This document shows, piece after piece, positions 13,979 to 52,326 of a stretch of DNA of 64,000 nt (positions are counted from its first letter, which is position 1; each line of letters begins with the position of its first letter). A program made the translations under genes and the position numbers. The notes below the pieces were generated by a model. That model did no database searches and was not told where the DNA came from. It saw nothing but the letters and a program-made list of their open reading frames with translations. Source of the DNA: a phage; the NCBI GenBank assembly GCA_025611195.1, contig GCA_025611195.1_4718.1; one strand, 5' to 3'.

Positions 13979-14049
13979 TTTACCTTTCTATGTTAGGTGG
14001 ATTGCGGATAGAAGAATCAATGCATAAACTAATTTAAGTTTGTTAAGGT

Positions 14050-14952
14050 TTACTTAGCCTTTGAGTTATGCGGACTAACATGCTGTTGTACTCGTTGGAT
14101 TGTATCGTAGTACGGGTTAGATTGGTTGAACATGTTGTTGTGTGGGGGATAGCCATATGGCGCATTTTGCCTTGTTGGTGAGAAACCTTGTTGAGAAGGA
14201 CGGTTTGAATTAACCGCGAGTACGTAGTAAACCAAATTTTGACGGTCGAATGTTCCTTCGTTTTTGAAAGTGTCGGCGTAGGCTTTTACCGCTGGAGTGA
14301 GCCTATCACCATCGGCTGTAATAATTGTACCGTCTGGGTAAACTTCCCGAACGACGCACCATGTTCCGATGAGAACATCTTTAGGTGCTGTATTACCATA
14401 TCCGGTTGTAACGGTAAGGTAAGTATCGAACCCTTCAGAACAACAAGGATGACGATAGATGGGTCCTGTCATTTCCGTTCTATCGGTATCGCTACATTGT
14501 TCTATTGAGAGCGATGATGTGTCGGTTTTGAAATTGTCAAATTCTTTCTTTAAGTCGATTACGGGTTCTTTCGTATAGTACTTCTTGATTGCTTTGACGT
14601 AAAGATCAGGAACGGTTGTCAGCAATCCGTTATACCTGATTCTCAGGTTTTCGAGTAATCCAAAGATGCTCGCGCATGCCTGTTCGCGAGGTTTTGTAAG
14701 ATAAGAGATCCCCTCAGGAACGCTGGGATCTTTGAGAAAGAAGATTGCGTTATTGTCGTTGTGCGATGCGTTGAAGAAAACGATTGATTCGATATATACG
14801 GAGCATAGGCTGTCATTGGCGTCGTCAGATAACACCCAGATGCACTCATCGGTCGTCTTGTTTAAAAGTTCTGTTTTGTCGACCAAACGTTGTTTCATTG
14901 CGAGGAAATGTGCCTGTTGTTCAGCAGTTAATTCACGATAAATAGTGGTCAT
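14050..14952 (-). CDS. hypothetical protein (~300 aa), paralog of 15038-15811
   Basis: start at ATG 14952 with AAGGAG SD; C-terminal block HPCCSEGFDTYLTVTTGYGNTAPKDVLIGTWCVVREVYPDGTIITADG matches HPECHTTYDRYLTITGGVAAPSPVDIGEWRMIREIYPDGRIVTFCG in the neighbour. Confidence 0.65.
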   Translation of the reverse strand: MTTIYRELTAEQQAHFLAMKQRLVDKTELLNKTTDECIWVLSDDANDSLCSVYIESIVFFNASHNDNNAIFFLKDPSVPEGISYLTKPREQACASIFGLLENLRIRYNGLLTTVPDLYVKAIKKYYTKEPVIDLKKEFDNFKTDTSSLSIEQCSDTDRTEMTGPIYRHPCCSEGFDTYLTVTTGYGNTAPKDVLIGTWCVVREVYPDGTIITADGDRLTPAVKAYADTFKNEGTFDRQNLVYYVLAVNSNRPSQQGFSPTRQNAPYGYPPHNNMFNQSNPYYDTIQRVQQHVSPHNSKAK

Positions 14953-15037
14953 GTTGGGCTCCTTGATTACGATAAGGATGATTGCGGTTTTGTGGGTTTG
15001 GTAGGGCCCTAAACAAAGGAACCCTACCAATATTAGG

Positions 15038-15811
15038 TTAATCAGGATCGGCGTAGAAATGGTGAGGATAGCCGGAGTACGATCCTGCGTTACCGGCTAT
15101 GGATTCTTTCTGGGAATCGACGACGAGCGCATAGAACTGTCGGGAATTTGTTAGCGTTGAGAAATAAGCGGAAAGGACTTTTTCATTCAATGCATCACAA
15201 GGTAGGCAGGTGCGACCGCAAAACGTCACGATACGGCCGTCAGGATAGATCTCACGAATCATTCTCCACTCACCGATATCCACTGGTGATGGCGCTGCTA
15301 CACCACCTGTTATCGTTAAGTAACGATCGTACGTGGTATGGCATTCAGGATGAATATAGATCGGCTTGTTCGTTTCGACAGGTTCCGAAGTATCTCGACG
15401 ACTAAGAAGCTCAACGACTTCAAGATAAATCGTTGGTAGATCGCGGAGAATACCGGTGCTACGACGTTTCTTTGTGATTCGCGGACGAATCTCGTTGAGA
15501 GCGTATTCGAGCTTACGTTCAGCTTCGTACGCATCGAGTTTTATCAAGCGACCCGGTTCATCGGAATGATCCTGAGTTACGTAAACGAAATACGTGTCGC
15601 CTTTTGCAGCGTGAAAGATTCGAGCGACCTTAAATGTTTCTACGGTACGATAACCAAGGCGCGATTGATTTTCCACAGGAGAAAATATCCAATGCCGTCC
15701 TTCGTCAGCCTCAACAATTTCGTTGAAACTATCTGTCTGTTCTGGGACCTGGTAGTCAGCCAGTAATGTGTCGAGAGCATCATCAGCCAGTTTGATGTAA
15801 ATATCTGTCAT
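15038..15811 (-). CDS. hypothetical protein (257 aa), paralog of 14050-14952
   Basis: shared C-terminal domain with adjacent gene; preceded by promoter-like motif. Confidence 0.65.
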   Translation of the reverse strand: MTDIYIKLADDALDTLLADYQVPEQTDSFNEIVEADEGRHWIFSPVENQSRLGYRTVETFKVARIFHAAKGDTYFVYVTQDHSDEPGRLIKLDAYEAERKLEYALNEIRPRITKKRRSTGILRDLPTIYLEVVELLSRRDTSEPVETNKPIYIHPECHTTYDRYLTITGGVAAPSPVDIGEWRMIREIYPDGRIVTFCGRTCLPCDALNEKVLSAYFSTLTNSRQFYALVVDSQKESIAGNAGSYSGYPHHFYADPD

Positions 15812-27205: not shown

Positions 27206-28495
27206 TTATGCTTTTTCGGTCACGGCGTTAAAGTATTTCGCTGCAGCAAATACGGCATCCGCATATTGACGTATCGAAGCGCGAAGAATCTTGGTTGACA
27301 GTACCGTACTTAAACGCGCCATTTCAGAAACCGCGCCTACATAAGGACGGATGGTTTCACGATCGGCTTCAGGCAACTTGTCGAGCATATCACCCCACTT
27401 CGTTTTGATTTTCATACCGTTGAGTTTAGCGGTACGCTCCACAGAACCAGCCAAAGCTTCAACCATGTGAAAATAAGAGGGGTCGATCGTACGGAACACG
27501 TTAAGATAGGAAGTTAACGCACCCTTCAGTTCGTTATCGTCTTTGAAAATGTTTGCGTTCTCTATCTCACCGGCCACCGTCATCTCGGCTTCAACCCGAA
27601 TATTTTTCACCAACGTATAGGCTTTAATCGCGTCACGTTCGTTTTCAACAGCATCGAGACCTTGAATAACGAATTCCTTCCCACCGCTCTCTGGAAAAAC
27701 AACTTTATTCAGCGCGGATTTGATCGCCAGCAGGTATTTGTCTAAGATAGACGGAAGTAGAGTTAGGTCGGTGAGGTCTGCGACCTTTTTATTGATATCA
27801 GCTACTTGCTTAAACAGTGAATCTACCCCGCTTGCGCTTGCAGCGAGTTGTTCGATATGCTTGCTTGCAAACATGGCATTCGCTGACTTCGCGTTAGGGA
27901 ACATATTGACCATATTTTCAGTGGGTTTATCCAGTTGTTTGATATGGCGTTCACCTTTATTCACGGCGGTTGCGATGCCGACAATTTTGTTGTATGCGAT
28001 GACCAGGTTCTTGAACAGCATCTGGAGCAGTTTGAACAGCTGCTCAGCGATATTTGCAATGATTACCCAGACAGCATATAACGCTTGTGCTGCGCGTTCT
28101 TTAAAGCCTTCCAATACAATAGCTTGCCCTTCCACTAACTTATCATTAGCCTGGAACATGTCTTCATCGGACATCCCCAGGTTAGCCGCTGATGTCGAAG
28201 CGATCTGACGGATAAGTGCGACGTCGCTCGCACGTGCTTCCAAGATCGTTGGTGCGATCATGTATGCTGTATCTTCCAGCGTTGCTGAGGTACGCACTGC
28301 AATTTCAGCCAGTTCGCTGGATTCATCGATTGTCTCGTCGGTACGTTGAATCACCAACTCAACTTCACCCTCTTCAATTTCTGCGTTAGGATCGTGCTGC
28401 TCCGCCGGAATCGTCGCGAGAAGATCTTCGGCGCTCAATAGAGAGAGTTCGAATGCGTTTTTATTGACGTTATCAAAAAGAGAAATACGTGCCAT
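27206..28495 (-). CDS. hypothetical protein (429 aa), member of paralog family
   Basis: shares ...DVALIRQI...LEGFKERAAQALYAVWVII with 28505-29821 (...DVALVRNV...VEGFKDTVVKAMKKIWDII). Confidence 0.7.
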   Translation of the reverse strand: MARISLFDNVNKNAFELSLLSAEDLLATIPAEQHDPNAEIEEGEVELVIQRTDETIDESSELAEIAVRTSATLEDTAYMIAPTILEARASDVALIRQIASTSAANLGMSDEDMFQANDKLVEGQAIVLEGFKERAAQALYAVWVIIANIAEQLFKLLQMLFKNLVIAYNKIVGIATAVNKGERHIKQLDKPTENMVNMFPNAKSANAMFASKHIEQLAASASGVDSLFKQVADINKKVADLTDLTLLPSILDKYLLAIKSALNKVVFPESGGKEFVIQGLDAVENERDAIKAYTLVKNIRVEAEMTVAGEIENANIFKDDNELKGALTSYLNVFRTIDPSYFHMVEALAGSVERTAKLNGMKIKTKWGDMLDKLPEADRETIRPYVGAVSEMARLSTVLSTKILRASIRQYADAVFAAAKYFNAVTEKA

Positions 28496-41040: not shown

Positions 41041-43845
41041 TTAAGCTAATTTACCGAAACCGGCTTTCTGTAGTTTCTCGTTGATGATTTTCGCTTCAGC
41101 GAAGACGTAATCGCGGTAGGCGGTCACTAACGCATCCACACGTGAACGCAAGGCTTCTTCGAAGCTATACCACGCTGCGATTTCACGAATCTGTGCGTTG
41201 ATATAATCAACGGTTGAGCGAAGCTCGGTTGCGTTTTCTTGCGGGATGGCTTTCACCTGGCGAGCAACGTCATTTAAACGACGGAACTGTGTTTCGATTT
41301 CTTTAAACTTACTGTCGGCAAGTTTGCTGAATTCGTCACCGGAACGGGTAAATAACAGATAGCTGTTGCCGTCAAGTGCGGTCGCTAACTGCTGAAGTAC
41401 GTTGGTGTCCGGATACACAGGAGTACCGCTTTGCAATACTTTCTCACCGAATTCCGCGAAGTCCTTCGGCGGTAAGTGTGCAGACGTTGTCAACTCGTTG
41501 AAACGGAAAGTCAGCGAATTATCATAAAGCATCCGGTACGCTTCCATACCCTGTTTCATGGTACCAGCCAGGTTAGCCAGACGCGGAGCAATCTCACCTT
41601 CTTTAGCGCGTTTCTGATCTTCTAACGCCCCTTCGAGTTCTTTACACTGGTCATTCAGATACACGATACGATCGGGACGCAGACGACGCATCTCACGAAG
41701 AATAGTATCCAGCTTACCTTCCTGGAAATAACCTAACGTTAAAGACGTACACGCTTGCTGAAGACGATCGAACACCGGTAAGGTCACCATCTCTTTACGG
41801 ATACCATCAACAATCGCAGAAACAGCCGAAAGTTTCTGTTCGGTGGTTAATGGAGCGTCAGAGACCGACTTGCTGGGCGCGCCAACAACGTTACGCATTG
41901 CGTCGGTATCCTCGGTTTTATCAACCTCTTTACGAACGTTCTCATCAGGAACATAAACGTTCGCGTTACGTTTCGCCTGCTTGATGGCGTCGTTGGCTGC
42001 TTTTTCGGTGGCCGCTACACTATCGGCACGTTTCTTCAAGAGTTCAATAATCCAGAGCAACAGACGACGAATCGCTGTATAGGCTGTCGTGATGATGACA
42101 CCGATAACAGCCATCTTCATGATACCGAACGATTCCATGGTCGGCTCTAACGCCCGGTCTGGCATATACCGTTCACGCAGTTCCAGATAGATCTGCTCAT
42201 CTGGTTTGCTGATCTCACCACGATGCGAAGTCCGATAGATGGCTTCGTCAATCTCAACAAGATCTTTACGTGCTTGACGGTCTGTTTCGGTCAAATAAGC
42301 GCAGCCGGATACGTCGTCTTCAAAACTTTCGAACTTAAAGAAATCGACAACCATCTTGGCAAGCGCCTCTTTCTTAGCAGGATCGAGCGTCTTCGCATCC
42401 TCTTTTTGCTTATCCATTTTTTCCTTGAATTTCTCTTTATAGTCATTCAAGGGTTTTACCGCTCTTGCCTTCAACGCGTTATAGATAGCTTTCCACTCAT
42501 CGTCACGTTCGAGGACAATGAAATGGTTCTTGAGTTCGAAAGCACGATAGCGTGCAACGAGCTGTTCTACCTGAATGTGAGCGAGTTGGATATCCATTAA
42601 CCAACGCGACATCGCCGAGATCAAACGGCTATAAGCGAACAACGTTTGGTAGGTTAACTTCATGTATGTTTCATACAGCTCAATATCGCCGCTCTGAATA
42701 TTGGCTGTTGGATTCATTTCCTTTGTTGCCCTGAAGACCTGTTCTGCTTCTCTCAGCGTCTTTTCGAACTTAACGTCATTAAACGCAGTGAATGGTTCAG
42801 CCAACTCATGCATTTTATCGTGGAGTTCGCGGATCCAAGATTCCTTGCTGTCGCGGATGGTGTTTTCATCATGGAGCGCAGTCTGATGTTTTCGTACCCA
42901 TTCTTCCACGATATCAGCAGCTGCAACCACCTGGACACGATCTGAAATCAATGGGACAATCGCGTGAAGTGCCCCAACACATTCTGGCGTGTCCCAGTGT
43001 TTCTGGAGGTCACCACGGAAACGGTCGATGTCTTTTAAGGTGGTACCTAAGTCAAGGAAAGTGCCGCCATTATGACTCATTTGTGCGACAAGATCGGCAA
43101 ATACCTTTTGTTTTTCGATGACAAAAGGAACCATCCGCATAAGCCATTCAGCAGTTGCTTTAGCCTTTTCTTTCAGATTTTTGTCGGCGATTTCTTTAAG
43201 GTTAATCGCGCTACTGTATCCTGCAAGTTCGTTGTAGACGTCGTTAACCGTCATCTCTTTATCCAACATTTCTTTGAAACGTGGATAATCTGCACCTAAC
43301 GCGTCGATGACTTCTTGGATGATGTCGTCTGTGGTGGCGATAAATTTATTTGTGCCACCGTAATGTTTCCAGATTTTCTGTAGCATCTTCTTAAAGAATT
43401 CGAAGACGAATGTCCAGATACGCTTGATGAGTTCCCAGACTTTCTTCGCGCCATCGACAAACAGTTTAGAGACCTTGGCAACGAATCCTTCCTGTACCAA
43501 CTCAACGCCGTTACGTGATGGGATTTCCGTGAAGAAAGCATCTGGCAGTTGTTTCGGGAACGCATCGCCAAGACGCATACGTAGTTCAGGTACATCGGCA
43601 CGAGAGATACCGCGTGTTACTAACTGTTCGTGAAGACGAACATTTTCTTCACCAGAGGCTACGAATTCGTTAACGTCAAATGAAACCAGTTCTTGATCTT
43701 CGGTGGTGACGACGCTTGAACCATCACTGGTTTGGATGTCTTCGTCAGGGAACGCCATCAGCATACCGTGACGCATTTCAACCACTCCGTAATCGGTTGC
43801 TAAACCGAATTCGTTGTGATCGGGAGTAATAACTGGGATACTCAT
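41041..43845 (-). CDS. large hypothetical protein (934 aa), long member of paralog family
   Basis: N-terminal ...GVELVQEGFVAKVSKLFVDGAKKVWELIKRIW matches EGF-helix motif of the ~430-aa paralogs. Confidence 0.75.
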   Translation of the reverse strand: MSIPVITPDHNEFGLATDYGVVEMRHGMLMAFPDEDIQTSDGSSVVTTEDQELVSFDVNEFVASGEENVRLHEQLVTRGISRADVPELRMRLGDAFPKQLPDAFFTEIPSRNGVELVQEGFVAKVSKLFVDGAKKVWELIKRIWTFVFEFFKKMLQKIWKHYGGTNKFIATTDDIIQEVIDALGADYPRFKEMLDKEMTVNDVYNELAGYSSAINLKEIADKNLKEKAKATAEWLMRMVPFVIEKQKVFADLVAQMSHNGGTFLDLGTTLKDIDRFRGDLQKHWDTPECVGALHAIVPLISDRVQVVAAADIVEEWVRKHQTALHDENTIRDSKESWIRELHDKMHELAEPFTAFNDVKFEKTLREAEQVFRATKEMNPTANIQSGDIELYETYMKLTYQTLFAYSRLISAMSRWLMDIQLAHIQVEQLVARYRAFELKNHFIVLERDDEWKAIYNALKARAVKPLNDYKEKFKEKMDKQKEDAKTLDPAKKEALAKMVVDFFKFESFEDDVSGCAYLTETDRQARKDLVEIDEAIYRTSHRGEISKPDEQIYLELRERYMPDRALEPTMESFGIMKMAVIGVIITTAYTAIRRLLLWIIELLKKRADSVAATEKAANDAIKQAKRNANVYVPDENVRKEVDKTEDTDAMRNVVGAPSKSVSDAPLTTEQKLSAVSAIVDGIRKEMVTLPVFDRLQQACTSLTLGYFQEGKLDTILREMRRLRPDRIVYLNDQCKELEGALEDQKRAKEGEIAPRLANLAGTMKQGMEAYRMLYDNSLTFRFNELTTSAHLPPKDFAEFGEKVLQSGTPVYPDTNVLQQLATALDGNSYLLFTRSGDEFSKLADSKFKEIETQFRRLNDVARQVKAIPQENATELRSTVDYINAQIREIAAWYSFEEALRSRVDALVTAYRDYVFAEAKIINEKLQKAGFGKLA

Positions 43846-44282
43846 GCATTCTCTCCTTGCAGTGCGTTAGCGAAAGCTGTTGCAAGTTGCGCAACCAGTT
43901 TCGGATCAACGCCTTCGATAACGTCGGGCAGCCCCGCGGTTTCTTGGTCACGAACAGCAGCTGCTAATAACAGCATGGTTTCAGGTGCTGTCGGCTCATG
44001 CACCATGCGGTAACGCAGGCACCAGAAGTAGCGGGCAACGTCTAACGCATCAGCCAACCCAATAACCAGCACCTTGTTCAGCTTATCCAGCCCTTCACGG
44101 ATTTTAGGGAGATGTTCACGAACGAAAATGCTATCTGCGGTCAGATCTTCTTTTTCAGCGAATACCGGCATGCTGTAACCAGCGATGTAACCTGCGGCAA
44201 TACTCAATGCACGGGTCTGTTGTTCGGCCGGGAAATCACGTACCAGGTCTTTCAGCTGAACGGCGAAATCAGAAATATTCAT
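43842..44282 (-). CDS. hypothetical protein (146 aa)
   Basis: ORF, 4-nt overlap with downstream gene. Confidence 0.55.
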   Translation of the reverse strand: MNISDFAVQLKDLVRDFPAEQQTRALSIAAGYIAGYSMPVFAEKEDLTADSIFVREHLPKIREGLDKLNKVLVIGLADALDVARYFWCLRYRMVHEPTAPETMLLLAAAVRDQETAGLPDVIEGVDPKLVAQLATAFANALQGENA

Positions 44283-44311: not shown

Positions 44312-45631
44312 TTAGGCGACAATAGAGTCAAGTGTTGCTGCCGTTTTAAACAGATCGTTGTTGATAACCGTAGACAGTGTTTTCTGAACCTGCTCCTGCT
44401 TCACGGCTTGCTGAACATCAGAACGCAACGCGATGGTAATGAGCTCCATAACGGTACGATTATCGTTGACCGTTTTCAAGATCTTGTCGATTTCTTTTAT
44501 CGCGTCTAGTGTCGAAACGCGGATATCCTGAGGTAAATCACGATCTTTAAGACGTCCAACCAACTCTTGTTTTAATTTCGCAACACGATCCTTGTCGCTG
44601 GTGTACGTGGAATAGGTAAAGTCGTATAGTGTTATTGTTTTCAGGTTGACGAAAAGAGCTACCGTACTCATTGTACCCAGGATTGGGTTAATTAACGATA
44701 AACCAACGATTGCGCCAATAACGGACAATGAACATACAGCATATTGCGTCCAAATACTATTGCGATCCCTTACTGATATTTTTCCGAGACGTTTGTAAAT
44801 TTTTGCTAGCGCGTCTGCCATTGCAGCTCCGCCGCCATGACGGGTGACGAATTGATCGGCGACAAATTCCGCTGAAGTATCGGAATAGCGACCCATGTGC
44901 GTTGCGACACGTGTCTGCTCTTCTTTATTGCTTATATACACGGTGTACCAGGTGGCAACATCGCTTGATTCCGCAATGACGTTGACGTCAACCGTTGTAC
45001 CCATCGCATCGTTTAATGATTTCGCGAGCGTGATCTTTTTCTCTTTATCTGTTGTTTGTAGTAATTCGCGTGCGGCGGTTGCGAGAGAAAAATCCGTCTT
45101 AGCGGATTCGGCGATAAATTCCAGGAAAGTAAAAGCGTGCCCAACTTCGTGCAATACAAACGCTGCTTTGTTTTCCGGAGTGAATTCCGTATCACGAATA
45201 AATCCGTCGGTTACAAATACGCGGATAACGATTTTCTCGAACGCACCTTTCACCCTACCATTGACAAGATCGACCACACCGACGATTTCATCGATATTCT
45301 TACTTAACTGTTTAAAATCTCTGTTTCGATAGAACTGTTTACGCCATTCTTCAATAAGCACATTGTTTTTTGTAATGTCTGGAGTAATACAGGAACAGTT
45401 AATTTCACTCATGTTCGGTATTACTTCTGTCTGGATGGTCAACCCAGTGTGTTTGCGTATTAAATCGGATAGTGGCTTACCACTGATATATTTTACCTTT
45501 TCTTCATAGCTGGTAAGATTATCCATTGTTTTGAATAACTCGGTCATTTCCTTGAACAAGGAACCATCTTGAAACTTGATGGCCTCCATCGTTAATTCGT
45601 CATGACCATACACGCGTTGTAGTAATGACAT
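44312..45631 (-). CDS. hypothetical protein (439 aa) with HExxH zinc-metallopeptidase-like motif and C-terminal hydrophobic segments
   Basis: AFVLHEVGHAF motif; later hydrophobic stretch VIGAIVGLSLINPILGTMSTVALFV. Confidence 0.65.
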   Translation of the reverse strand: MSLLQRVYGHDELTMEAIKFQDGSLFKEMTELFKTMDNLTSYEEKVKYISGKPLSDLIRKHTGLTIQTEVIPNMSEINCSCITPDITKNNVLIEEWRKQFYRNRDFKQLSKNIDEIVGVVDLVNGRVKGAFEKIVIRVFVTDGFIRDTEFTPENKAAFVLHEVGHAFTFLEFIAESAKTDFSLATAARELLQTTDKEKKITLAKSLNDAMGTTVDVNVIAESSDVATWYTVYISNKEEQTRVATHMGRYSDTSAEFVADQFVTRHGGGAAMADALAKIYKRLGKISVRDRNSIWTQYAVCSLSVIGAIVGLSLINPILGTMSTVALFVNLKTITLYDFTYSTYTSDKDRVAKLKQELVGRLKDRDLPQDIRVSTLDAIKEIDKILKTVNDNRTVMELITIALRSDVQQAVKQEQVQKTLSTVINNDLFKTAATLDSIVA

Positions 45632-45852: not shown

Positions 45853-47604
45853 ATGAGCGAACAAGAACGAAAACCTAAGAAGAAACTGCTCGGTATTCAA
45901 TGTCGACACATCAGCTATAACGAAGCGAACGATGGTAGTAAGAACGACCTCATGATCGCAAAAGAGATCATGTTCTTCGATGATAATACGCAAGCGACGA
46001 ACCTTCGCTTCTTCGAGAATTACAAACGTCCGTTTTGGGTGACGGTAGAGAGTAAACGCAAGAACAAATATAAAAAGGAAAGCGAGAAGCTCTCGCACGT
46101 GCGACGCTACGATGTCCGTCAAAGTGAGCTGGTTGAAAAGATCAGCTCGGTGCTTTATAAAAGACGTGCTGACGATAACACCCGTTTACAGCAGCTTGCA
46201 CGGAGTCCCTACCTCTATGGCACGGACGTTAGCGCCAGCTGTTATTTAAAAACCCAATACAATACAAAATGGCCGGAATACGTCGATAAATTACCCGCGT
46301 CTATCGCATGTTTCGATATCGAAACCGATGTTGTCCACGGACACGGTAAGATCGTCTGTATGTCTATTACAATGGGATACAATGCGATCCTTTGCTATAC
46401 CAAGGACTTCGTTGGTCATATTCCGAATGCGATTGAGAAAACCCATGAGAAGATTCGATATTACCTGGCCGAACGTCTGAACACCAAAGAAGATCCTCAT
46501 GCGTTCGAAAAATATCAGTACGATGTTCGAATCGTAGAAAGCCCAGCACAAGCGGTCATCCAATGCATGCAGAAGGTTCACGAATGGCAGCCGGATTATC
46601 TCCTTGGCTGGAATATCGCGTTCGATATTCCGCGTATGCTCCAGGCACTGAACGAGGAAGGGTATCGTCCCGAGGATGTTTTCTCCGATCCTCGTGTACC
46701 ACCTAAGTATCGTATTGCTCGCTGGGTACCACCGAAGACCGACAAGGTATCTGCTTCAGGTCGTAAAACCAACCTTACCCTTGAGCAAACCTGGCCGATG
46801 TTTTATACGATGGCCACGTATCAGGTTATGGATGCGATGTGTGGTTATAAGTTCGTTCGTTTAGGAAGACCGGATGAGGGGAGATACTCACTCGATGCGG
46901 TGTTAGAGCGAAATAAATGTCATACGAAATTAAAAGCAATTCCTGGTACAGAGGGGTTCACGGAGCTTGCGTGGCACGAAGAGATGCAAACGAACCATCA
47001 AATCGACTACGGCGTATATAACCTTTGGGATAACCAGGGTATCGAGGCGTTGGACCAGAAAACAAAAGACTATTCGATGACCATCCCTATTCGTTTGGCA
47101 GCATCGGATTTGAAAGATTTCAGTTCTAACCCTAAACGTATCTGCGATAAACTTTTCTTCGTTTATCTTAACCGTGGGGAAGTCATGGGATGCACCGCCG
47201 ACGACATGACCCAGGAAGAAGATAAGTGGGTTATCTCACGAACCGGACATATCGTCACATTGCCATGCGATCTCATGGCGGACAACGGCATCCATCTCTT
47301 CTGGGATATGCCGAACCTGAGAAGTTATATCCGTCTATTCGTTGCAGACCTCGACATTAGCAGTTCATACCCGAATGGGCAGATCCTGTTGAATCTATCC
47401 AGAGCATGTGTTTTTCGTGAGCTCTCACGCATTGAAGGCGTCTCTGACTATCAGTTCAGGAAGTTAGGTATCAACTTTATTACCGGAGGTAAAACGAACG
47501 CTGTAGACTTCTGTAGAATCGTTTATAAAGCACCATCGATGTTCGAACTCTTAGAACATTTCGATGCAACGCGTCCAAAAGGGGAAGCGCGGACCATCGA
47601 ATGA
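45853..47604 (+). CDS. family B DNA polymerase, N-terminal fragment (3'-5' exonuclease domain plus polymerase motif A); polymerase appears split
   Basis: Exo I CFDIETDV, Exo II LLGWNIAFDIPRM, Exo III YNLWD, motif A ADLDISSSYPNG; no motif B/C before the stop. Confidence 0.7.
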   Translation: MSEQERKPKKKLLGIQCRHISYNEANDGSKNDLMIAKEIMFFDDNTQATNLRFFENYKRPFWVTVESKRKNKYKKESEKLSHVRRYDVRQSELVEKISSVLYKRRADDNTRLQQLARSPYLYGTDVSASCYLKTQYNTKWPEYVDKLPASIACFDIETDVVHGHGKIVCMSITMGYNAILCYTKDFVGHIPNAIEKTHEKIRYYLAERLNTKEDPHAFEKYQYDVRIVESPAQAVIQCMQKVHEWQPDYLLGWNIAFDIPRMLQALNEEGYRPEDVFSDPRVPPKYRIARWVPPKTDKVSASGRKTNLTLEQTWPMFYTMATYQVMDAMCGYKFVRLGRPDEGRYSLDAVLERNKCHTKLKAIPGTEGFTELAWHEEMQTNHQIDYGVYNLWDNQGIEALDQKTKDYSMTIPIRLAASDLKDFSSNPKRICDKLFFVYLNRGEVMGCTADDMTQEEDKWVISRTGHIVTLPCDLMADNGIHLFWDMPNLRSYIRLFVADLDISSSYPNGQILLNLSRACVFRELSRIEGVSDYQFRKLGINFITGGKTNAVDFCRIVYKAPSMFELLEHFDATRPKGEARTIE

Positions 47605-47684: not shown

Positions 47685-47701
47685 GGAAGTTTTATGTGTT
47701 T

Positions 47702-48151
47702 TTAATTATTGTTGATGGGGTTATCGTCCGGCTTATATTCGATGCCGTAGGCGACGTAACGGTCTGTCGTATGGACGACAAGCGAGATGGGGAAATCATA
47801 ATGCGTGGTTTTGTCTCGGACGAGCTGAGTAAAGAGATCCATATAACGTATTAAGTCTTCACTGGTGTAATCAGAAGGGAAGAAGACGTCGATGGTTATT
47901 GAATCTTCATAGAGGCGTATAACCAACTTATCCAGAAGGTCGGCATATTGGTTAGCCGGGGTGACGTCCAGCTCACAGATATCACGATCTCCTTCGTCTC
48001 GTGATACCCACATCATGGTATCCTGTAATGAGGTTTCAAGGATCTCGAAAATGCATTTTGCTGTAAGTTTTAGTTTATTTGTTACGTCATGGTTAGGTGA
48101 ATAATGGTCACGGATGTTTTTCACTGCGTCTTTGATAGAGAAAGTCATCAT
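47702..48151 (-). CDS. small paralog array member P1 (149 aa)
   Basis: AAGGAG SD; C-terminal YDFPISLVV...EYKPDDN motif shared with P6-P9. Confidence 0.65.
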   Translation of the reverse strand: MMTFSIKDAVKNIRDHYSPNHDVTNKLKLTAKCIFEILETSLQDTMMWVSRDEGDRDICELDVTPANQYADLLDKLVIRLYEDSITIDVFFPSDYTSEDLIRYMDLFTQLVRDKTTHYDFPISLVVHTTDRYVAYGIEYKPDDNPINNN

Positions 48152-48161
48152 TGATGCTCCT

Positions 48162-48671
48162 TCAAATGAAATTAATACGTGCGGCTGTCGAAACGAGTTC
48201 GCTTGTAAAGCAATGCTTACCGTCGGTGTTTACCGTGTATGTAAGTTTACAAACCTTAGCGGCAGGGTTAGCACCGATAACAAGGACGGTCGTCATATCG
48301 AACAGTTCCACACGTTGAAGAAATGCCGTATCGGCTACCTTCTGTAAACCGGTTGCTTCAAAATCGATGTGGTCGTTAAGAGGCACCAATTGGATTTCAA
48401 TGCGTTCTTTGAAAAGTTTAAACGTTACTGAAAACCGATGAGGTTCGGTATTAAGCCATAAAGGTCCACGTTGGAAGTGCTGATATGCTTCATTCGCGGT
48501 GTTCTCGAAAACCCAGCAGTCGTGGACAAGAGAAGCCTCTTGTAACGATGATTCCAGGTAGTCAAATACCTTGTTTATCGTTTTCTCAAGCATAGGCGCT
48601 AGTGAACCAGGGTATCCGGCAAATGCTGCTTCGGCAATCGATTTTATTGATACGATGTTGTTCTGACTCAT
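48162..48671 (-). CDS. small paralog array member P2 (~169 aa)
   Basis: start moved to ATG 48671 with AAGGAA SD; same size class and context. Confidence 0.55.
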   Translation of the reverse strand: MSQNNIVSIKSIAEAAFAGYPGSLAPMLEKTINKVFDYLESSLQEASLVHDCWVFENTANEAYQHFQRGPLWLNTEPHRFSVTFKLFKERIEIQLVPLNDHIDFEATGLQKVADTAFLQRVELFDMTTVLVIGANPAAKVCKLTYTVNTDGKHCFTSELVSTAARINFI

Positions 48672-48675
48672 TTCT

Positions 48676-49128
48676 TTATTCCTTGTTGGCTTCTTCAATG
48701 TGCTTGGTGTCGTAAGACAAATGCTGAATTAATTTTCTAGGTTCGATGAAAATACGACATGTGATAAACACATCAGGGTTGTATTGTTCCACGCAACGTC
48801 CGAAGGCTCGTTTTGCGGACTGACGCATCAATGTTAATTCCTGATCGTTCATCTCATCATCAAATTCGATGTGTATCGTGATTTTATCGGGAAATAAATA
48901 GATAGAGTAGTCGCTACCGATATCACCGTCGTCAAAACGATAATCGTTGTGGTAATGGTGGAGTTTACCTTCGTGTATCGTCTGGTACCACCCAACGATA
49001 CTATCAAGACCCATACCCAGGCGTCCGAATGCTTGAGTAATAACATCCTCAACGACGGATGCGGGCGTGGGACCATTGAATAGACGATCTAAGCGCTTTT
49101 TCATTGATTTGTCGGTTTTCATGTTCAT
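48676..49128 (-). CDS. small paralog array member P3 (~150 aa)
   Basis: start moved to ATG 49128 with AGGAAA SD; AFGRCVEQYNPDVFITCRIFIEP resembles family C-terminal motif. Confidence 0.55.
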   Translation of the reverse strand: MNMKTDKSMKKRLDRLFNGPTPASVVEDVITQAFGRLGMGLDSIVGWYQTIHEGKLHHYHNDYRFDDGDIGSDYSIYLFPDKITIHIEFDDEMNDQELTLMRQSAKRAFGRCVEQYNPDVFITCRIFIEPRKLIQHLSYDTKHIEEANKE

Positions 49129-49158
49129 TGTTTCTTTTCCTGTGTAGTCGGTATACAA

Positions 49159-49190
49159 CCCTTCCCCGGCCTGATGGCTAGGGAAGGGGC
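49159..49190 (-). terminator. hairpin CCCTTCCCC-loop-GGGAAGGGG inside the small-paralog array
   Basis: inverted repeat between P4 and P3. Confidence 0.45.
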
Positions 49191-49202
49191 TATGCTACGT
49201 TG

Positions 49203-49601
49203 TTATGCTTCGCAATCAGCTGAAGACGTCGCGCCTTTCTTACCAGCGATACGCCAAATCCGACACGCTGGATAATGGTTAACCTCTAGAGAGCAAGGAA
49301 TGTTATATTTCTCTTCCAGCGCATAAAGACATTTCGTTAGCTGCTCCAGCGCGTTCTCGTCGTGTCGTAACGCGTGGTGGCCTAATCGATGTTGGTCGTT
49401 CTTTATATACGCCTCGAAGAGAACATGTTGGCGATGTACGCTGACGTTTACAGCCTCGAGTATAGCTTGGTCGAGCATACGACTAAAGCACATCAACGAG
49501 TCAGATACGTTTTCTCGCTTAACCAGATCGATCATGGCGGGAATATACGAATGGTCGATGTTATCGATGACCGCTTTAGCGACGGAATCAGCAACGTTCA
49601 T
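49203..49601 (-). CDS. small paralog array member P4 (~132 aa)
   Basis: start at ATG 49601; N-terminus MNVADSVAKAVIDNIDH and C-terminus LEEKYNIPCSLEVNHYPA near-identical to P5. Confidence 0.65.
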   Translation of the reverse strand: MNVADSVAKAVIDNIDHSYIPAMIDLVKRENVSDSLMCFSRMLDQAILEAVNVSVHRQHVLFEAYIKNDQHRLGHHALRHDENALEQLTKCLYALEEKYNIPCSLEVNHYPACRIWRIAGKKGATSSADCEA

Positions 49602-49637
49602 CTTTTTAATCCCTAGTTTGTTATTGATCACGTATAT

Positions 49638-50033
49638 TTACTCTTTGACGTCAGTTGTCGTTTCGACATGCTTCTCACTACTGACGTACCAGAGCAGGTA
49701 CGCTGGGAAAAGATTGACCTCTAAGCTAAATGGGATATTGTATTTCTCTTCCATTTTACAGAGATGTTCTTTAATTAAATTTCTCGCGTCTCTGTCACCA
49801 CGAACAGAGTGCCAGTCTAGTTCTTTGTTCTCCTTTACCAGGACCTCTACGATGATACGTTGCTCGTGAACCTCGGTTTTCACAGTGAAAAGTAAATCGC
49901 TGCTATCAAAACGGGTAAAACGAATGTATGAACCAGGTGTTTTTTCTTGTTTAATAATATCGATCATGGTAGAAATGCGCGGATGATCGATGTTGTCGTT
50001 AACAGCTTTAACGATGGATTCTACAATGCTCAT
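49638..50033 (-). CDS. small paralog array member P5 (131 aa)
   Basis: MSIVESIVKAVNDNIDH...MEEKYNIPFSLEVNLFPA; tandem duplicate of P4. Confidence 0.65.
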   Translation of the reverse strand: MSIVESIVKAVNDNIDHPRISTMIDIIKQEKTPGSYIRFTRFDSSDLLFTVKTEVHEQRIIVEVLVKENKELDWHSVRGDRDARNLIKEHLCKMEEKYNIPFSLEVNLFPAYLLWYVSSEKHVETTTDVKE

Positions 50034-50065
50034 TTTTTATCCTTAATGTTATCGATTTGGAAATA

Positions 50066-50833
50066 TTACTTATTTTTGCTTTCTTTATAGACAGTTGTTA
50101 CCCACGATGGGAAAGCCGGATGGAAACAGAGCGTGAACGTAACTGTCGTATCGTATTTAAACGCGCAGTTCACTAACCGGGTATCGAACGTTTTCCTTAG
50201 ACCATCATCATCGTTATCGATGACAGCCATATCTCTTAATATCCCAAGCACGTTAACGCCGTCGAGTGTCTGGGTTACGACAAGTCGTCGTAATGGCCCG
50301 CATGTATAGTCACGTACAAATCCTTTCTTCGGGTCCGATACCCTGTTTAACGCATCGTGATTTTTGATGAATTCATCGGCGATACAATAGGTTTGTTCCC
50401 TTGCTTTATCGGGATCGTATTCTGCTAATAGTTCCTTCGTGTCGAACGTTATCATGTTATTATCATTCGATTCAGAAGGGAAACATAAAACTAAACGAAC
50501 AGGGTATTCGTATTGATCTGTTCTTGTTTCGAAAGCATTAGCTAGACACGGCTTGTATGCCTTTGCGTCGACATTGTCCAAACATGGATGCAATAATGCA
50601 TGAATAACGGCACCATCGTCAGTTAAACCGAATTCCAGAAATTGTACTTTATCAGTATCCGCTACGGTTTTCTGAAGATACGCTTTACCGTTTACGATAT
50701 CGGTATCCCACATATCGTCGTTTAACGATTCTTCAAACTTATCGAATATATGGTTTACGAGATTGACGAGTTCATCAATACGGCACTGTTGGTTGAATTC
50801 GATTAATCGCTGAACTTTATCTTTGATAGACAT
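50066..50833 (-). CDS. small paralog array member P6 (255 aa, possibly a two-domain fusion)
   Basis: contains AFETRTDQYEYPVRLVLCFPSE motif mid-protein and second related half. Confidence 0.6.
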   Translation of the reverse strand: MSIKDKVQRLIEFNQQCRIDELVNLVNHIFDKFEESLNDDMWDTDIVNGKAYLQKTVADTDKVQFLEFGLTDDGAVIHALLHPCLDNVDAKAYKPCLANAFETRTDQYEYPVRLVLCFPSESNDNNMITFDTKELLAEYDPDKAREQTYCIADEFIKNHDALNRVSDPKKGFVRDYTCGPLRRLVVTQTLDGVNVLGILRDMAVIDNDDDGLRKTFDTRLVNCAFKYDTTVTFTLCFHPAFPSWVTTVYKESKNK

Positions 50834-50835
50834 GA

Positions 50836-51294
50836 TTACCCCTTAGTTTCTTCTTCGTCTGGAGAGTACTCCATTGTGTAGAATTCATAACCATCGGAAA
50901 ACTTGAGTGTTAATGTAATAGGGAAATCGCACGGCATAGCTGATTTCGTAAACGCGTTATTAGCAACATCAGCCAACCGACGTATAGCATCAGTCCCGCT
51001 GACGCTGAACGGTAGTTGTATGTTGATAAGGATGCGGTGCTTGTAAACATGGAAAACAACGGTACTGTCAAGATAAACGCTATGGAACGGTATTGTTGGG
51101 ATGCGTTCCACGATGGTAAAATACGTCCCGTCATTATCGCTATGTCCCATCGACCAAATATCGGATTTGCGTAGATTTTGTTTGAGGGATTCGATACTTC
51201 GAGTGACGGTATCAACAACAGGCGTGACGTAAGTGTCTTTATGCGAGTCGAAAAGTTCGTTGACGTTAGATTCGAATGAATACATTGTTGCCAT
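50836..51294 (-). CDS. small paralog array member P7 (152 aa)
   Basis: C-terminus AFTKSAMPCDFPITLTLKFSDGYEFYTMEYSPDEE; start overlaps P8 stop (TAATG). Confidence 0.65.
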   Translation of the reverse strand: MATMYSFESNVNELFDSHKDTYVTPVVDTVTRSIESLKQNLRKSDIWSMGHSDNDGTYFTIVERIPTIPFHSVYLDSTVVFHVYKHRILINIQLPFSVSGTDAIRRLADVANNAFTKSAMPCDFPITLTLKFSDGYEFYTMEYSPDEEETKG

Positions 51295-51773
51295 TATTCT
51301 ACCTCTTTCTTCATCTTCATCGGAACAGAGAGTGCTGTTATCTCTGTTCCATTATCCGGTTCATACTCCAATGTAACGAGATTGCAGCCATCCGATAATT
51401 CATAATCGATCGCTAGGGGGAACGAGACACCGTGCGACTTTATGCATTTACCAAATGTCTCGTTGGCTGTATACATTAGAAGTTGCTTTGCGGCAAGCCC
51501 GTTTACGCTGAAAGGTAATCGTGCTGTCGCAGCGATACGATTATTGTAAACTCTGATATCGGTGATATCTACAATCGTAGCATTGCCGTGTTGTGTCGTT
51601 GGAACGGATAGGCTGTAGAAGTAAGGTTCGGAGTCGGAATCGGGCTCGTTAAATAATTCCCAGCACCCGTCCTCCTGCAATCTTACTTCGAGTATTTCAA
51701 AGCTTTTAATTATCGATTCTACCAGCTGCTCACCGTAAGAATCCCATGTCGTCATTTTTAACACCTTCGACAC
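51294..51773 (-). CDS. small paralog array member P8 (159 aa)
   Basis: C-terminus TFGKCIKSHGVSFPLAIDYELSDGCNLVTLEYEPDNG. Confidence 0.65.
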   Translation of the reverse strand: MSKVLKMTTWDSYGEQLVESIIKSFEILEVRLQEDGCWELFNEPDSDSEPYFYSLSVPTTQHGNATIVDITDIRVYNNRIAATARLPFSVNGLAAKQLLMYTANETFGKCIKSHGVSFPLAIDYELSDGCNLVTLEYEPDNGTEITALSVPMKMKKEVE

Positions 51774-51825
51774 CTTTTAACCGATGCGTGCCCCACCTAA
51801 CAAGGGACACGATATCGTTGATTAA

Positions 51826-52326
51826 TTACTCTTCTGTGTTTTCATTGTCAGGATCGTAATGGAATTCGAACAGCCCTGAACCGTCATGTCCGTTGATTGT
51901 TAGTATAACGGGCATATCGAATCCTCGGACGCGCGAATGAAAACACTGTGCTAATTTTAGTTTGGCGTATGCCGCTATTTCATTGACGGCAATACACGAC
52001 TCACCTGTTATACTCAGTATAACGTCGATACTAACAACGTTGTCGTGCAACGCAAAACGCCAGCGATCGATACGATTATTATCTTTAGCAGCTGTCTCGT
52101 TTACGAGATAGACTTTATCGTCAACTGACAAAGCAGGGCTCCAGCAACGTTCGTTTATTAAATTCGCCTGGAGTTTTAGTATCGTCTGATCAATAATATC
52201 CCAACACGCAACCAGTGTGGTGTCGGGCACTGAACAGAGAAGGGCGAGCACTTTATCCTTTATTTTAAGTGCTTCCACAGAGCGTCCGCAAATACCATGC
52301 ATTTCAACCTTCTTATTCATATTCAC
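51826..52326 (-). CDS. small paralog array member P9 (166 aa)
   Basis: C-terminus LAQCFHSRVRGFDMPVILTINGHDGSGLFEFHYDPDNE. Confidence 0.65.
   Translation of the reverse strand: MNMNKKVEMHGICGRSVEALKIKDKVLALLCSVPDTTLVACWDIIDQTILKLQANLINERCWSPALSVDDKVYLVNETAAKDNNRIDRWRFALHDNVVSIDVILSITGESCIAVNEIAAYAKLKLAQCFHSRVRGFDMPVILTINGHDGSGLFEFHYDPDNENTEE

What the first reader, a model, noticed from the sequence alone, without database searches (positions are those of the whole stretch)
44312..45631. HExxH motif protein with hydrophobic C-terminal segments (possible membrane-associated metallopeptidase)
AFVLHEVGHAF is a canonical zincin HExxH context (hydrophobic-x-x-HExxH), and the C-terminal part has a long hydrophobic stretch. 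A phage-encoded membrane metalloprotease could act in host takeover or lysis regulation. The motif is short and could occur by chance.
Basis: partly seen in the sequence, partly recalled or inferred. Interest (0 to 1): 0.45.

Follow-up and report, generated by a model that had tools for sequence, protein, structure and literature searches.

The report
Capsid-packaged M48-like zinc protease of jumbo phage
The gene encodes a real but functionally uncharacterised zinc-protease-like protein that giant "nucleus-forming" phages carry inside their heads; this copy is a very divergent allele sitting in an otherwise near-identical relative of E. coli phage Goslar.

Summary
The ORF (44312-45631, minus strand, 439 aa), the HEVGH motif and the hydrophobic C-terminal stretch are all real. 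The window is a Goslar-like chimallivirus, about 95% identical in DNA to E. coli jumbo phage Goslar. The gene is the ortholog of Goslar gp67, phiKZ gp84 and SPN3US gp45.

Published proteomics puts the orthologs in the phage head. The prohead protease removes a short N-terminal propeptide after a conserved Glu, which is Glu16 here. Goslar carries about 50 copies per virion.

The family was already flagged in 2021 as an "uncharacterized zincin-like metallopeptidase", so this is a new member of a known but unstudied kind.

New here:
- the M48 assignment with its third zinc ligand;
- the conserved 20-40-residue hydrophobic segment;
- conserved gene order with two capsid-vertex proteins;
- a gene-sized allelic replacement (48% identity against a median of about 97.5% for 49 shared genes).

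My favoured, unproven role is an ejected, membrane-inserting protease. Lysis regulation is unlikely.

The parts
44312..45631 (-). Complete gene, 439 codons plus stop. Ortholog of Goslar gp67, phiKZ gp84 and SPN3US gp45 (phrog_2767).
   Evidence: The exact protein is HCP6915089.1, 'hypothetical protein [Escherichia coli]'.
45584..45631 (-). N-terminal propeptide, aa 1-16 (MSLLQRVYGHDELTME). Probably a capsid-targeting peptide, cut after Glu16 by the prohead protease.
   Evidence: P1 is Glu in 151/154 relatives and P3 is S/A/G/T. SPN3US gp45 is cut at ASE-20, which aligns with TME-16 here. A semi-tryptic peptide AIKFQDGSLFK... from Goslar gp067 is in the virion MS data. AF2 pLDDT is below 50 for residues 1-14.
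44777..45445 (-). M48-like catalytic domain, aa ~63-285: a five-stranded sheet, the long active-site helix and the 'glutamate helix'.
45137..45151 (-). HEVGH, aa 161-165: two zinc-binding His and the catalytic Glu.
   Evidence: Invariant in 154/154. Aligns with H335/E336/H339 of ZMPSTE24.
44855..44869 (-). E255-F-V-A-D259: the ExxAD motif. E255 is the predicted third zinc ligand.
   Evidence: E255 and D259 are invariant. The motif aligns with E415 'EFQAD' of ZMPSTE24.
44627..44764 (-). Hydrophobic helical hairpin, aa 290-335 (helices 290-314 and 316-335, with an N-P turn). Candidate membrane-inserting segment.
   Evidence: It is the most variable part of the protein within allele classes.
44315..44596 (-). 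C-terminal helical domain, aa 346-439, carrying invariant R349 and near-invariant Y343/D344, K362, E420 and N425.
44315..45540 (-). Allelic replacement. From about codon 33 to the stop, DNA identity to Goslar falls from ~97% to 40-70%, while both flanks stay at 93-100%.
43842..44282 (-). Downstream gene, 146 aa. Ortholog of Goslar gp66 and phiKZ gp85, a component of the capsid inner vertex-binding complex.
   Evidence: 98.6% identical to Goslar gp66. Structural assignment is from bioRxiv 10.64898/2026.04.21.720040.
41041..43845 (-). Next gene, 934 aa. Ortholog of Goslar gp65, phiKZ gp86 and SPN3US gp47, a vertex-binding complex protein with its own hydrophobic helix.
   Evidence: 97.5% identical to Goslar gp65.

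Best explanation
What it is (about 0.9 confidence): a peptidase-M48-like zinc metalloprotease of a Goslar-like chimallivirus, orthologous to Goslar gp67, phiKZ gp84 and SPN3US gp45.

Packaging and trimming (shown for orthologs, inferred here): the protein is made late and taken into the prohead. The prohead serine protease removes a 16-residue N-terminal targeting peptide after Glu16. About 50 copies of the ~47 kDa mature protein stay in the DNA-filled head. The gene is encoded with, and probably functionally tied to, the two vertex-binding-complex proteins.

How it most likely works (inferred, about 0.4 for this whole step): the enzyme is cargo, not a maturation tool. It leaves the head with the DNA and the other ejection proteins. 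Its conserved 20-40-residue hydrophobic segment then inserts into the host inner membrane, or into the early-infection vesicle derived from it. There the HExxH...ExxAD site cleaves a membrane-proximal substrate, either a host envelope or defence protein or a co-ejected phage protein. Contact with host factors would explain why this gene evolves so much faster than its neighbours, and is swapped as a cassette, while the catalytic residues never change.
For: Identity:
- The phrog_2767 match is E 1.8e-73.
- 199 jumbo-phage records hit by tblastn, and 2688 representative clusters in the profile search.
- The pairwise match to phiKZ gp84 is E 1e-12, with a reciprocal hit back to Goslar gp67. The match to SPN3US gp45 / SEGD1 gp047 is E 2e-22.

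Active site and fold:
- HExGH, E255 and D259 are invariant.
- The AF2 model has pLDDT 90.7 and pTM 0.89.
- The family profile against PDB finds ZMPSTE24 at E 3.3e-4, with both motifs aligned on its catalytic residues.
- Family member P0179 scores 25.0 bits against Pfam Peptidase_M48, above the 20.3 cut-off.

Head location and processing:
- phiKZ gp84 is annotated as a structural head protein.
- SPN3US gp45 is listed as 'Head, unknown function', cleaved at ASE-20.
- Goslar gp067 was detected with 19 peptides and 47% coverage, estimated at 32-76 copies per virion. A semi-tryptic peptide starts at Ala17.
- The cleavage motif is conserved family-wide.

Link to the vertex complex:
- The gene order pol / M48-like / ~140 aa / 360-930 aa is kept in phiKZ, SPN3US, Goslar, LucasX, Halocynthia phage JM-2012 and Bacillus phage AgentSmith.

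For the ejection/membrane step:
- The hydrophobic segment is conserved in 148/154 relatives.
- The protein was not modelled in the Goslar capsid reconstruction (its Table S4 row has no substructure or model copy number). It is not mentioned in the phiKZ capsid paper either. Yet its abundance is comparable with 55-copy vertex proteins.
- It is retained intact in mature virions.
- It is the extreme outlier in divergence, at 48% against a median of ~97.5% for 49 shared genes. The next most divergent shared gene is gp056, a member of the PF12699 internal-head family, several of whose members are known to be injected.
- Within allele classes, dN/dS is 0.14, against 0.01-0.02 for the neighbours.
- From established knowledge, M48 proteases typically act at membranes.
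Against: - No experiment shows zinc binding, proteolysis, membrane insertion or ejection for any member of the family.
- gp84 was not among the virion proteins that co-purified with injected gp93 in phiKZ.
- The hydrophobic segment is short in some members (19 charge-free residues in phiKZ gp84). It could instead be a buried protein-protein contact in the vertex complex.
- The neighbouring gp65/gp86 protein also has a TM-like helix and was once called an ejection protein. It has since been resolved as a fixed vertex component.
- The conserved operon with vertex proteins fits a structural or maturation role equally well.
- Overall dN/dS is below 1, so there is no proof of positive selection.
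- The window protein itself does not reach any Pfam or NCBIfam threshold.
Confidence: 0.4

Rival explanations
1. In-head maturation peptidase. The enzyme works inside the prohead, after the serine prohead protease has activated it or released its substrates. It chops the long cleaved propeptides and scaffold-like fragments into pieces small enough to leave the capsid before DNA packaging. This is the role suggested by Iyer et al. 2021.
For: - PMC7824862 proposes just this for AMR59696.1, which I confirmed to be a homolog.
- Propeptides of 111-254 residues are removed and mostly cleared from these heads.
- The protein has a short targeting propeptide like T4 internal proteins and is itself a prohead-protease substrate.
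- The catalytic residues are invariant.
- The gene is kept in an operon with head-vertex genes.
Against: - Every mapped maturation cleavage in SPN3US fits the A/S/G-x-E motif of the serine protease, and protease-minus particles show no cleavage. No second specificity has been seen.
- A housekeeping head enzyme would not be expected to be the fastest-evolving, cassette-swapped gene of the region.
- This role does not explain the conserved TM-like segment.
- The intact enzyme is retained in mature virions.
Confidence: 0.3
2. Mainly an architectural or assembly factor. It would be an accessory, flexibly attached subunit of the vertex-binding complex, or a tether that holds the nascent procapsid at the cytoplasmic membrane through the hairpin. 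The protease site would then be used only for self-processing, or for nothing essential.
For: - Abundance is in the range of 55-copy vertex proteins: LFQ area/mass 5.2, against 8.2-8.4 for gp65 and gp42 and 1.8 for gp192.
- Unassigned helical density lies next to gp65.
- Gene order with gp85/gp86 homologs is strictly conserved.
- phiKZ orf84 has 0 transposon insertions in 1242 bp in the trimmed essentiality table.
Against: - Invariance of all three zinc ligands, the catalytic Glu and the ExxAD Asp across ~25%-identical sequences argues for a used active site.
- The authors likened the unassigned density to PF12699 folds, not to this protein.
- phiKZ orf85-86 can be deleted, so the complex it would attach to is not essential there.
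- High variability is unusual for a pure scaffold.
Confidence: 0.15
3. Chance motif: the HExxH is fortuitous and the protein is not related to peptidases.
For: - The window protein has no Pfam or NCBIfam peptidase hit.
- HExxH occurs by chance elsewhere in the window.
Against: - The motif and a matching third ligand are invariant in 154/154 relatives.
- The profile hit to ZMPSTE24 is E 3.3e-4, on the catalytic residues.
- A family member passes the Pfam M48 threshold.
Confidence: 0.02

Closest known systems
Goslar gp67 (YP_009820752.1), phiKZ gp84 (PHIKZ084), SPN3US gp45 / SEGD1 gp047 (AMR59696.1); PHROG 2767
   Same: - Full-length homologs of the same length (413-450 aa).
- Same motifs and the same gene order next to the gp85/gp86-type vertex proteins.
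- The same N-terminal cleavage motif, except in phiKZ gp84, whose annotated N-terminus starts at the family's E-x-I-x-F-Q block with His in the Glu16 column and so shows no propeptide.
- They are head proteins by mass spectrometry, and were predicted to be a 'zincin-like metallopeptidase' in 2021.
   Different: - Only 48% identical to Goslar gp67, although the rest of the window is ~95-98% identical to Goslar.
- It belongs to a second, deeply diverged allele class (dS above 2).
- None of these orthologs has a demonstrated function.
Peptidase family M48 (Ste24/ZMPSTE24, HtpX, BepA, Oma1; Pfam PF01435)
   Same: - HExxH on the active-site helix, and a third Glu ligand in an ExxAD motif 90 residues downstream (80 in ZMPSTE24).
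- It carries hydrophobic helices, as the membrane-bound members do.
   Different: - Sequence identity is only 15-18%, and the window protein is below the Pfam threshold.
- The topology differs: the single hydrophobic hairpin follows the ExxAD helix. In Ste24 the catalytic residues sit within a seven-helix chamber, and in HtpX there are TM helices on both sides of HExxH (both from my own knowledge).
- It has extra N- and C-terminal helical domains, is packaged in a virus capsid, and has a prohead-protease-cleaved propeptide.
T4 internal proteins and Alt (capsid-targeting-sequence cargo)
   Same: A short N-terminal peptide (10-20 residues) ending in Glu is removed by the prohead protease after incorporation, and the cargo is retained in the head (as discussed in PMC5694885).
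   Different: No sequence relation. T4 cargo proteins are not metalloproteases and have no TM-like segment. Ejection is shown for T4 cargo but not for this family.
Membrane-inserting ejection proteins of other phages (T7 gp14-16, P22 gp7/gp20/gp16, T5 Pb2)
   Same: They are virion-carried proteins with hydrophobic segments that enter host membranes on infection. T5 Pb2 also combines a membrane segment with a metallopeptidase. This comparison rests on my own knowledge and is a lead only.
   Different: No homology was detected. Those peptidases attack peptidoglycan (M23-type), whereas M48 enzymes cleave polypeptides. Ejection and membrane insertion are untested for this family.

Membership tests
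Peptidase M48 (clan MA gluzincins) | HExxH zinc-binding and catalytic motif on a helix | tested here: met
   HEVGH at aa 161-165 inside predicted helix 152-191. Invariant in 154/154 relatives.
Peptidase M48 (clan MA gluzincins) | Third zinc ligand is a Glu in a downstream helix, within the M48-typical ExxAD motif | tested here: met
   E255-FVA-D259 in helix 247-264, with E and D invariant. It aligns with E415 'EFQAD' of ZMPSTE24.
Peptidase M48 (clan MA gluzincins) | Catalytic-domain fold like solved M48 structures | tested here: met
Peptidase M48 (clan MA gluzincins) | Sequence reaches the curated Pfam PF01435 threshold | tested here: inconclusive
   The window protein gives no hit at E<=1. 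SPN3US gp45 scores 17.7 bits, below the 20.3 cut-off. Family member P0179 scores 25.0 bits, above it. The family profile against ZMPSTE24 gives E 3.3e-4.
Peptidase M48 (clan MA gluzincins) | Zinc-dependent peptide-bond hydrolysis | not testable with these tools
   Needs purified protein. No published assay for any family member was found.
phiKZ-like head protein family gp84/gp45/gp67 (phrog_2767) | Full-length homology to family members | tested here: met
   phrog_2767 at E 1.8e-73 over aa 12-435. Goslar gp67 at 48% over 100% of the length. phiKZ gp84 at E 1e-12. SPN3US gp45 at E 2e-22.
phiKZ-like head protein family gp84/gp45/gp67 (phrog_2767) | Conserved position: DNA polymerase gene / this gene / gp85-like / gp86-like | tested here: met
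   Window, Goslar, phiKZ, SPN3US, JM-2012, AgentSmith and LucasX.
phiKZ-like head protein family gp84/gp45/gp67 (phrog_2767) | N-terminal propeptide ending in an S/A/G-x-E prohead-protease site | tested here: met
   T-M-E16|A here. P1 is Glu in 151/154 relatives and P3 is S/A/G/T. Cleavage at the aligned site is shown by MS for SPN3US. For Goslar, whose first 31 residues are identical to the window protein (32 of the first 33), a semi-tryptic peptide indicates the same cleavage.
phiKZ-like head protein family gp84/gp45/gp67 (phrog_2767) | Physically present in purified virions or heads | not testable with these tools
   Shown only for orthologs: Goslar, SPN3US and the phiKZ annotation. This phage exists only as sequence.
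Phage ejection (E) proteins | Transferred from capsid into the host cell at infection | not tested
   No data for any ortholog. It was not among the gp93 co-purifying virion proteins in phiKZ.
Phage ejection (E) proteins | Membrane insertion of the hydrophobic segment | not testable with these tools
   Only hydropathy and charge-free length are available: 40 residues here, family median 27, and a 95th percentile of 26 in shuffled sequences.

The most novel reading that the evidence does not exclude
The head-packaged M48 protease is a delivered effector. It is ejected with the genome and anchors by its hairpin in the inner membrane. It then either helps to make or pinch off the early-infection (EPI) lipid vesicle that shelters chimallivirus DNA, or it cuts membrane-bound host sensors or defence proteins at the entry site. 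The deeply diverged allele cassettes circulating among near-identical Goslar-like phages would then be the footprint of an arms race with host factors.
Probability: 0.2. Interest if true: 0.8.

Novelty: new member of a known kind. Interest (0 to 1): 0.4.

Why it matters
Chimalliviruses inject their DNA into a membrane vesicle before they build the protein 'nucleus'. Which virion proteins act on the host membrane at that moment is an open question. This family is conserved across phiKZ-like phages and is present at tens of copies per head in Goslar. It combines a protease site with a TM-like segment, and no function has been assigned to it. That makes it a concrete and easily testable candidate.

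The gene-sized allelic replacement in otherwise near-identical genomes is also useful. It provides a natural allele-swap experiment, and it hints at host-specific pressure on a protein that was thought to be purely internal. If the protein instead proves to be a second maturation protease, that would revise the one-protease picture of giant-phage head maturation.

Tried and rejected
- **Direct family scans of the window protein.** Pfam, NCBIfam and PHROGs gave no peptidase name. Pfam's only hit was a sub-threshold proteasome-chaperone match, taken as noise.
- **Fold search against AFDB50.** The library was not available.
- **Literature on phiKZ gp84.** No paper in the library discusses it. Thomas et al. 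2012 is not held. The supplements for the PCH45 Tn-seq paper, the phiKZ EPI-vesicle paper and the Iyer 2021 paper are not held.
- **A numbering trap.** SEGD1 gp047 (AMR59696.1) is SPN3US gp45, not SPN3US gp47. SPN3US gp47, the essential 'ejection protein' with an amber mutant, is the ortholog of the neighbouring 934-aa gene (phiKZ gp86, Goslar gp65). Its genetics must not be transferred to this protein.
- **Lysis-regulation role.** Rejected, because orthologs are head proteins processed by the prohead protease.
- **SprT-like and M56 assignments.** Not supported: no such structures appear among the top hits, and the third ligand is the M48-type ExxAD.
- **phiKZ Tn-seq.** There were 0 insertions in orf84. 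I do not count this as proof of essentiality, because the adjacent orf85-86 also lacked insertions and yet could be deleted.
- **Fusion protein P0143 (1237 aa).** Its extra N-terminal part has no informative family hit.
- **Second HExxH in the window (nt 22155).** It is an antisense ORF inside the gp053 ortholog, so it is chance.
Full report
**Observation.** The window has one ORF at exactly the stated coordinates (44312-45631, minus strand, 439 aa, ATG start), with a purine-rich ribosome-binding site just upstream. The sequence AFVLHEVGHAF is present, with HEVGH at residues 161-165. A strongly hydrophobic stretch covers residues ~291-335, including 40 consecutive residues without a charged side chain. 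An isolated HExxH is weak evidence. About 0.005-0.014 are expected by chance in such a protein, and a second one in the window sits in an antisense ORF.

**Where the window comes from.** The DNA around the gene is about 95% identical to E. coli jumbo phage vB_EcoM_Goslar, a nucleus-forming chimallivirus. The alignment is collinear over almost all 64 kb. The exact protein is in GenBank as HCP6915089.1, 'hypothetical protein [Escherichia coli]', on a 135-kb contig. So this is a Goslar-like phage genome recovered from a bacterial assembly.

**Family.**
- The protein matches PHROG 2767 (function unknown) end to end, at E 1.8e-73.
- tblastn finds it in 199 phage records, all apparently large-genome phages (the listed ones are 167-308 kb) of Erwinia, Salmonella, Serratia, Klebsiella, Vibrio, Ralstonia, Pseudomonas and others. 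Most are annotated 'virion structural protein', and a few were auto-named BepA-like or M48 protease.
- A profile search of 1.84 billion representative proteins finds 2688 clusters (1401 at E<=1e-30), nearly all 410-450 aa.
- It is the ortholog of Goslar gp67 (48% identity, full length). It is also the ortholog of phiKZ gp84 (E 1e-12; reciprocal hit) and of SPN3US gp45 (E 2e-22).
- The gene order is conserved from Pseudomonas phiKZ to Bacillus phage AgentSmith and Halocynthia phage JM-2012. The order is DNA polymerase gene, this gene, a ~140-aa gene, a 360-930-aa gene.
- The two downstream genes are Goslar gp66 and gp65 (phiKZ gp85 and gp86). Cryo-EM places both in the 'vertex binding complex' on the inner face of each non-portal capsid vertex (bioRxiv 10.64898/2026.04.21.720040). 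The window copies are 98.6% and 97.5% identical to the Goslar proteins.

**Is it a metallopeptidase?**
- In an alignment of 154 members that average ~25% identity to the query, the invariant positions are G129, H161, E162, G164, H165, E255, D259 and R349.
- That gives HExGH plus ExxAD 90 residues downstream, which is the signature of peptidase family M48. There the Glu of ExxAD is the third zinc ligand.
- The family profile hits human ZMPSTE24 in the PDB at E 3.3e-4. Both blocks align on H335/E336/H339 and E415 (a weaker version with a small profile is).
- An AlphaFold2 model built on 145 sequences is confident (pLDDT 90.7, pTM 0.89).
- The window protein itself is below every curated threshold. 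A family member, P0179, passes the Pfam Peptidase_M48 gathering score (25.0 against 20.3 bits), and SPN3US gp45 comes close at 17.7.
- In the viral structure library, the more distant matches are annotated 'Zincin protease' (Bacillus phage AR9) or 'Peptidase M48 domain-containing protein'.
- I conclude that the domain at residues ~63-285 is an M48-like gluzincin with an intact catalytic site. Activity itself is inferred, not shown.

**Architecture.**
- Residues 1-14 are disordered.
- Residues 24-62 form three helices.
- Residues 65-141 form a five-stranded sheet with two helices. This is the usual zincin upper subdomain, and it carries the invariant G-R/K-V-x-G strand.
- A 40-residue active-site helix (152-191) follows, then a helical insert.
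- The 'glutamate helix' is at 247-264.
- A hydrophobic helical hairpin is at 290-314 and 316-335.
- A C-terminal helical domain at 346-438 starts with near-invariant Y343/D344 and invariant R349.
- The hydrophobic segment is a family feature. It passes a TM-type hydropathy threshold in 148/154 members, always at the same place. Its charge-free length has a median of 27 residues, ranging from 19 in phiKZ gp84 to 40 here. It is rich in L, A, I, V, G and F, and often has Gly or Pro in the middle.

**Virion location and processing (from published data on orthologs).**
- phiKZ gp84 is annotated as a structural head protein.
- SPN3US gp45 is listed as 'Head, unknown function'. It is a substrate of the prohead serine protease gp245, cleaved at ASE-20, leaving a 48.2-kDa mature protein (PMC10052503; PMC5694885).
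- That Glu aligns with Glu16 of the window protein (T-M-E|A-I-K-F-Q). In the family this column is Glu in 151/154 sequences, and the P3 column is S/A/G/T, which is the known giant-phage prohead-protease motif.
- The first 31 residues are identical between the window protein and Goslar gp67, and 32 of the first 33.
- The supplementary peptide table of the Goslar virion study lists a semi-tryptic peptide, AIKFQDGSLFKEMTEFFR, for gp067. It starts right after that Glu. No peptide spanning the site was found in the stored part of the table, which was cut when stored. This reading of their table is mine, not a claim of the authors.
- The same table gives gp067 19 peptides and 47% coverage, including the peptide that contains HEIGH. 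The estimate is 32-76 copies per virion.
- That range is comparable with vertex-complex proteins modelled at 55 copies, such as gp65 (estimated at 51-120). No substructure or model copy number is listed for gp067, and the main text never mentions it.

**Prior art.** Iyer et al. [quoted passage not shown] I located AMR59696.1 as SEGD1 gp047. It is identical to SPN3US gp45 and homologous to the window protein. The peptidase prediction is therefore not new. No paper in the library reports an experiment on the protein's function. In a phiKZ transposon screen, orf84 had no insertions in 1242 bp in the trimmed essentiality table. The adjacent orf85-86 also lacked insertions and yet could be deleted, so this is only suggestive.

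**An unexpected feature: allelic replacement.**
- Of 49 Goslar genes that have a counterpart in this window, the median protein identity is about 97.5%. This gene is the extreme outlier at 48%. The next is the gp056 ortholog at 76%; gp056 belongs to the PF12699 internal-head family, several of whose members are known to be injected.
- DNA identity drops from 97-100% to 40-70% at about codon 33 and recovers at the stop codon.
- Across five Goslar-like genomes, the polymerase is 97-100% identical and gp66 is 98-100%. The M48-like protein ranges from 46 to 92% and falls into two classes. Class membership is not linked to the two classes of gp65.
- Between classes, dS exceeds 2, against about 0.2 in the flanks. 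The alleles are therefore anciently diverged and have been exchanged by recombination.
- Within classes, dN/dS is 0.14, against 0.01-0.02 for the polymerase and gp66. The hairpin region changes most.
- The catalytic residues, the propeptide and the first 33 residues stay constant.

**Mechanism.** Shown or strongly supported: an M48-type active site; head packaging and N-terminal trimming in orthologs; tens of copies per virion; genetic linkage to vertex proteins.

The role is inferred, and I favour delivered cargo. In this model the protein leaves the head with the DNA, inserts through its hydrophobic segment into the inner membrane or the early-infection vesicle, and cleaves a membrane-proximal target. 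The reasons are:
- The TM-like segment is conserved.
- The intact enzyme is retained in mature virions, although it is not part of the ordered shell.
- M48 enzymes generally work at membranes (my own knowledge of the family).
- The evolutionary pattern resembles host-facing proteins rather than housekeeping head proteins.

The main rival is an in-head peptidase that degrades released propeptides (Iyer et al.). Against it, all mapped maturation cuts fit the serine protease's motif, and none occur without that protease. Nor does that role explain the hydrophobic segment or the variability.

A structural or assembly role at the vertex complex is also possible. The neighbouring gp65/gp86 protein is a warning here. 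It too has a TM-like helix and was once called an ejection protein, but it is now seen fixed at the vertices. gp84 was also not among the virion proteins that co-purified with injected gp93. I therefore put only about 0.4 on the ejection model, 0.3 on in-head proteolysis and 0.15 on a mainly structural role.

**Verdict.** The finding is real and the peptidase interpretation holds, refined to M48-like. The lysis idea does not hold, and the membrane idea is plausible but open. It is a new, strongly divergent member of a known, conserved but experimentally untouched family. Interest is moderate. The protein is a good candidate for the unknown membrane-active machinery of chimallivirus entry, and the allele cassette is a ready-made experiment.

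Noticed in passing
window 45853-47604 (+): The family-B-type DNA polymerase gene (phrog_3011) is uninterrupted here (583 aa). In Goslar the annotated gene ends at codon 499, and a ~1.8-kb insertion carrying the NUMOD1/HNH homing endonuclease gp069 follows. The sequence for the last ~85 codons resumes after that insertion. Two other Goslar-like contigs (L009, L010) also carry an HNH gene there.
   Followed up: partly
window 14027-15806: A 1.78-kb insertion relative to Goslar, holding two minus-strand ORFs (14050-15030, 326 aa; 15038-15811, 257 aa). Neither has a Pfam match.
   Followed up: partly
window 47700-51850: A patchy region of small genes that aligns with Goslar only in pieces (82-94% identity). 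Goslar gp069 and gp070 have no counterpart here. It looks like a variable accessory-gene island next to the conserved head module.
   Followed up: no
window 27209-28495 (-): The ortholog of Goslar gp056, which belongs to the PF12699 internal-head family (several members of that family are known to be injected), is the second most divergent shared gene: 76% identity against a median of ~97.5%.
   Followed up: no
window 41041-43845 (-); loci L008-L010: The vertex-complex protein (gp65/gp86 ortholog) also occurs in two classes, about 85% identical, among Goslar-like genomes. These classes assort independently of the two M48-like allele classes. The protein has a TM-like helix (MKMAVIGVIITTAYTAIRRLLLWIIELL).
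   Followed up: partly
window 22155 (+ strand): A second HExxH (IHESFH) lies in a 245-aa ORF that is antisense to the gp053 ortholog. It is a chance ORF and a chance motif.
   Followed up: yes
P0143 (metagenomic protein, 1237 aa): One family member is fused to an ~810-residue N-terminal extension with no informative family match. It may be a gene fusion or a gene-calling artefact.
   Followed up: partly
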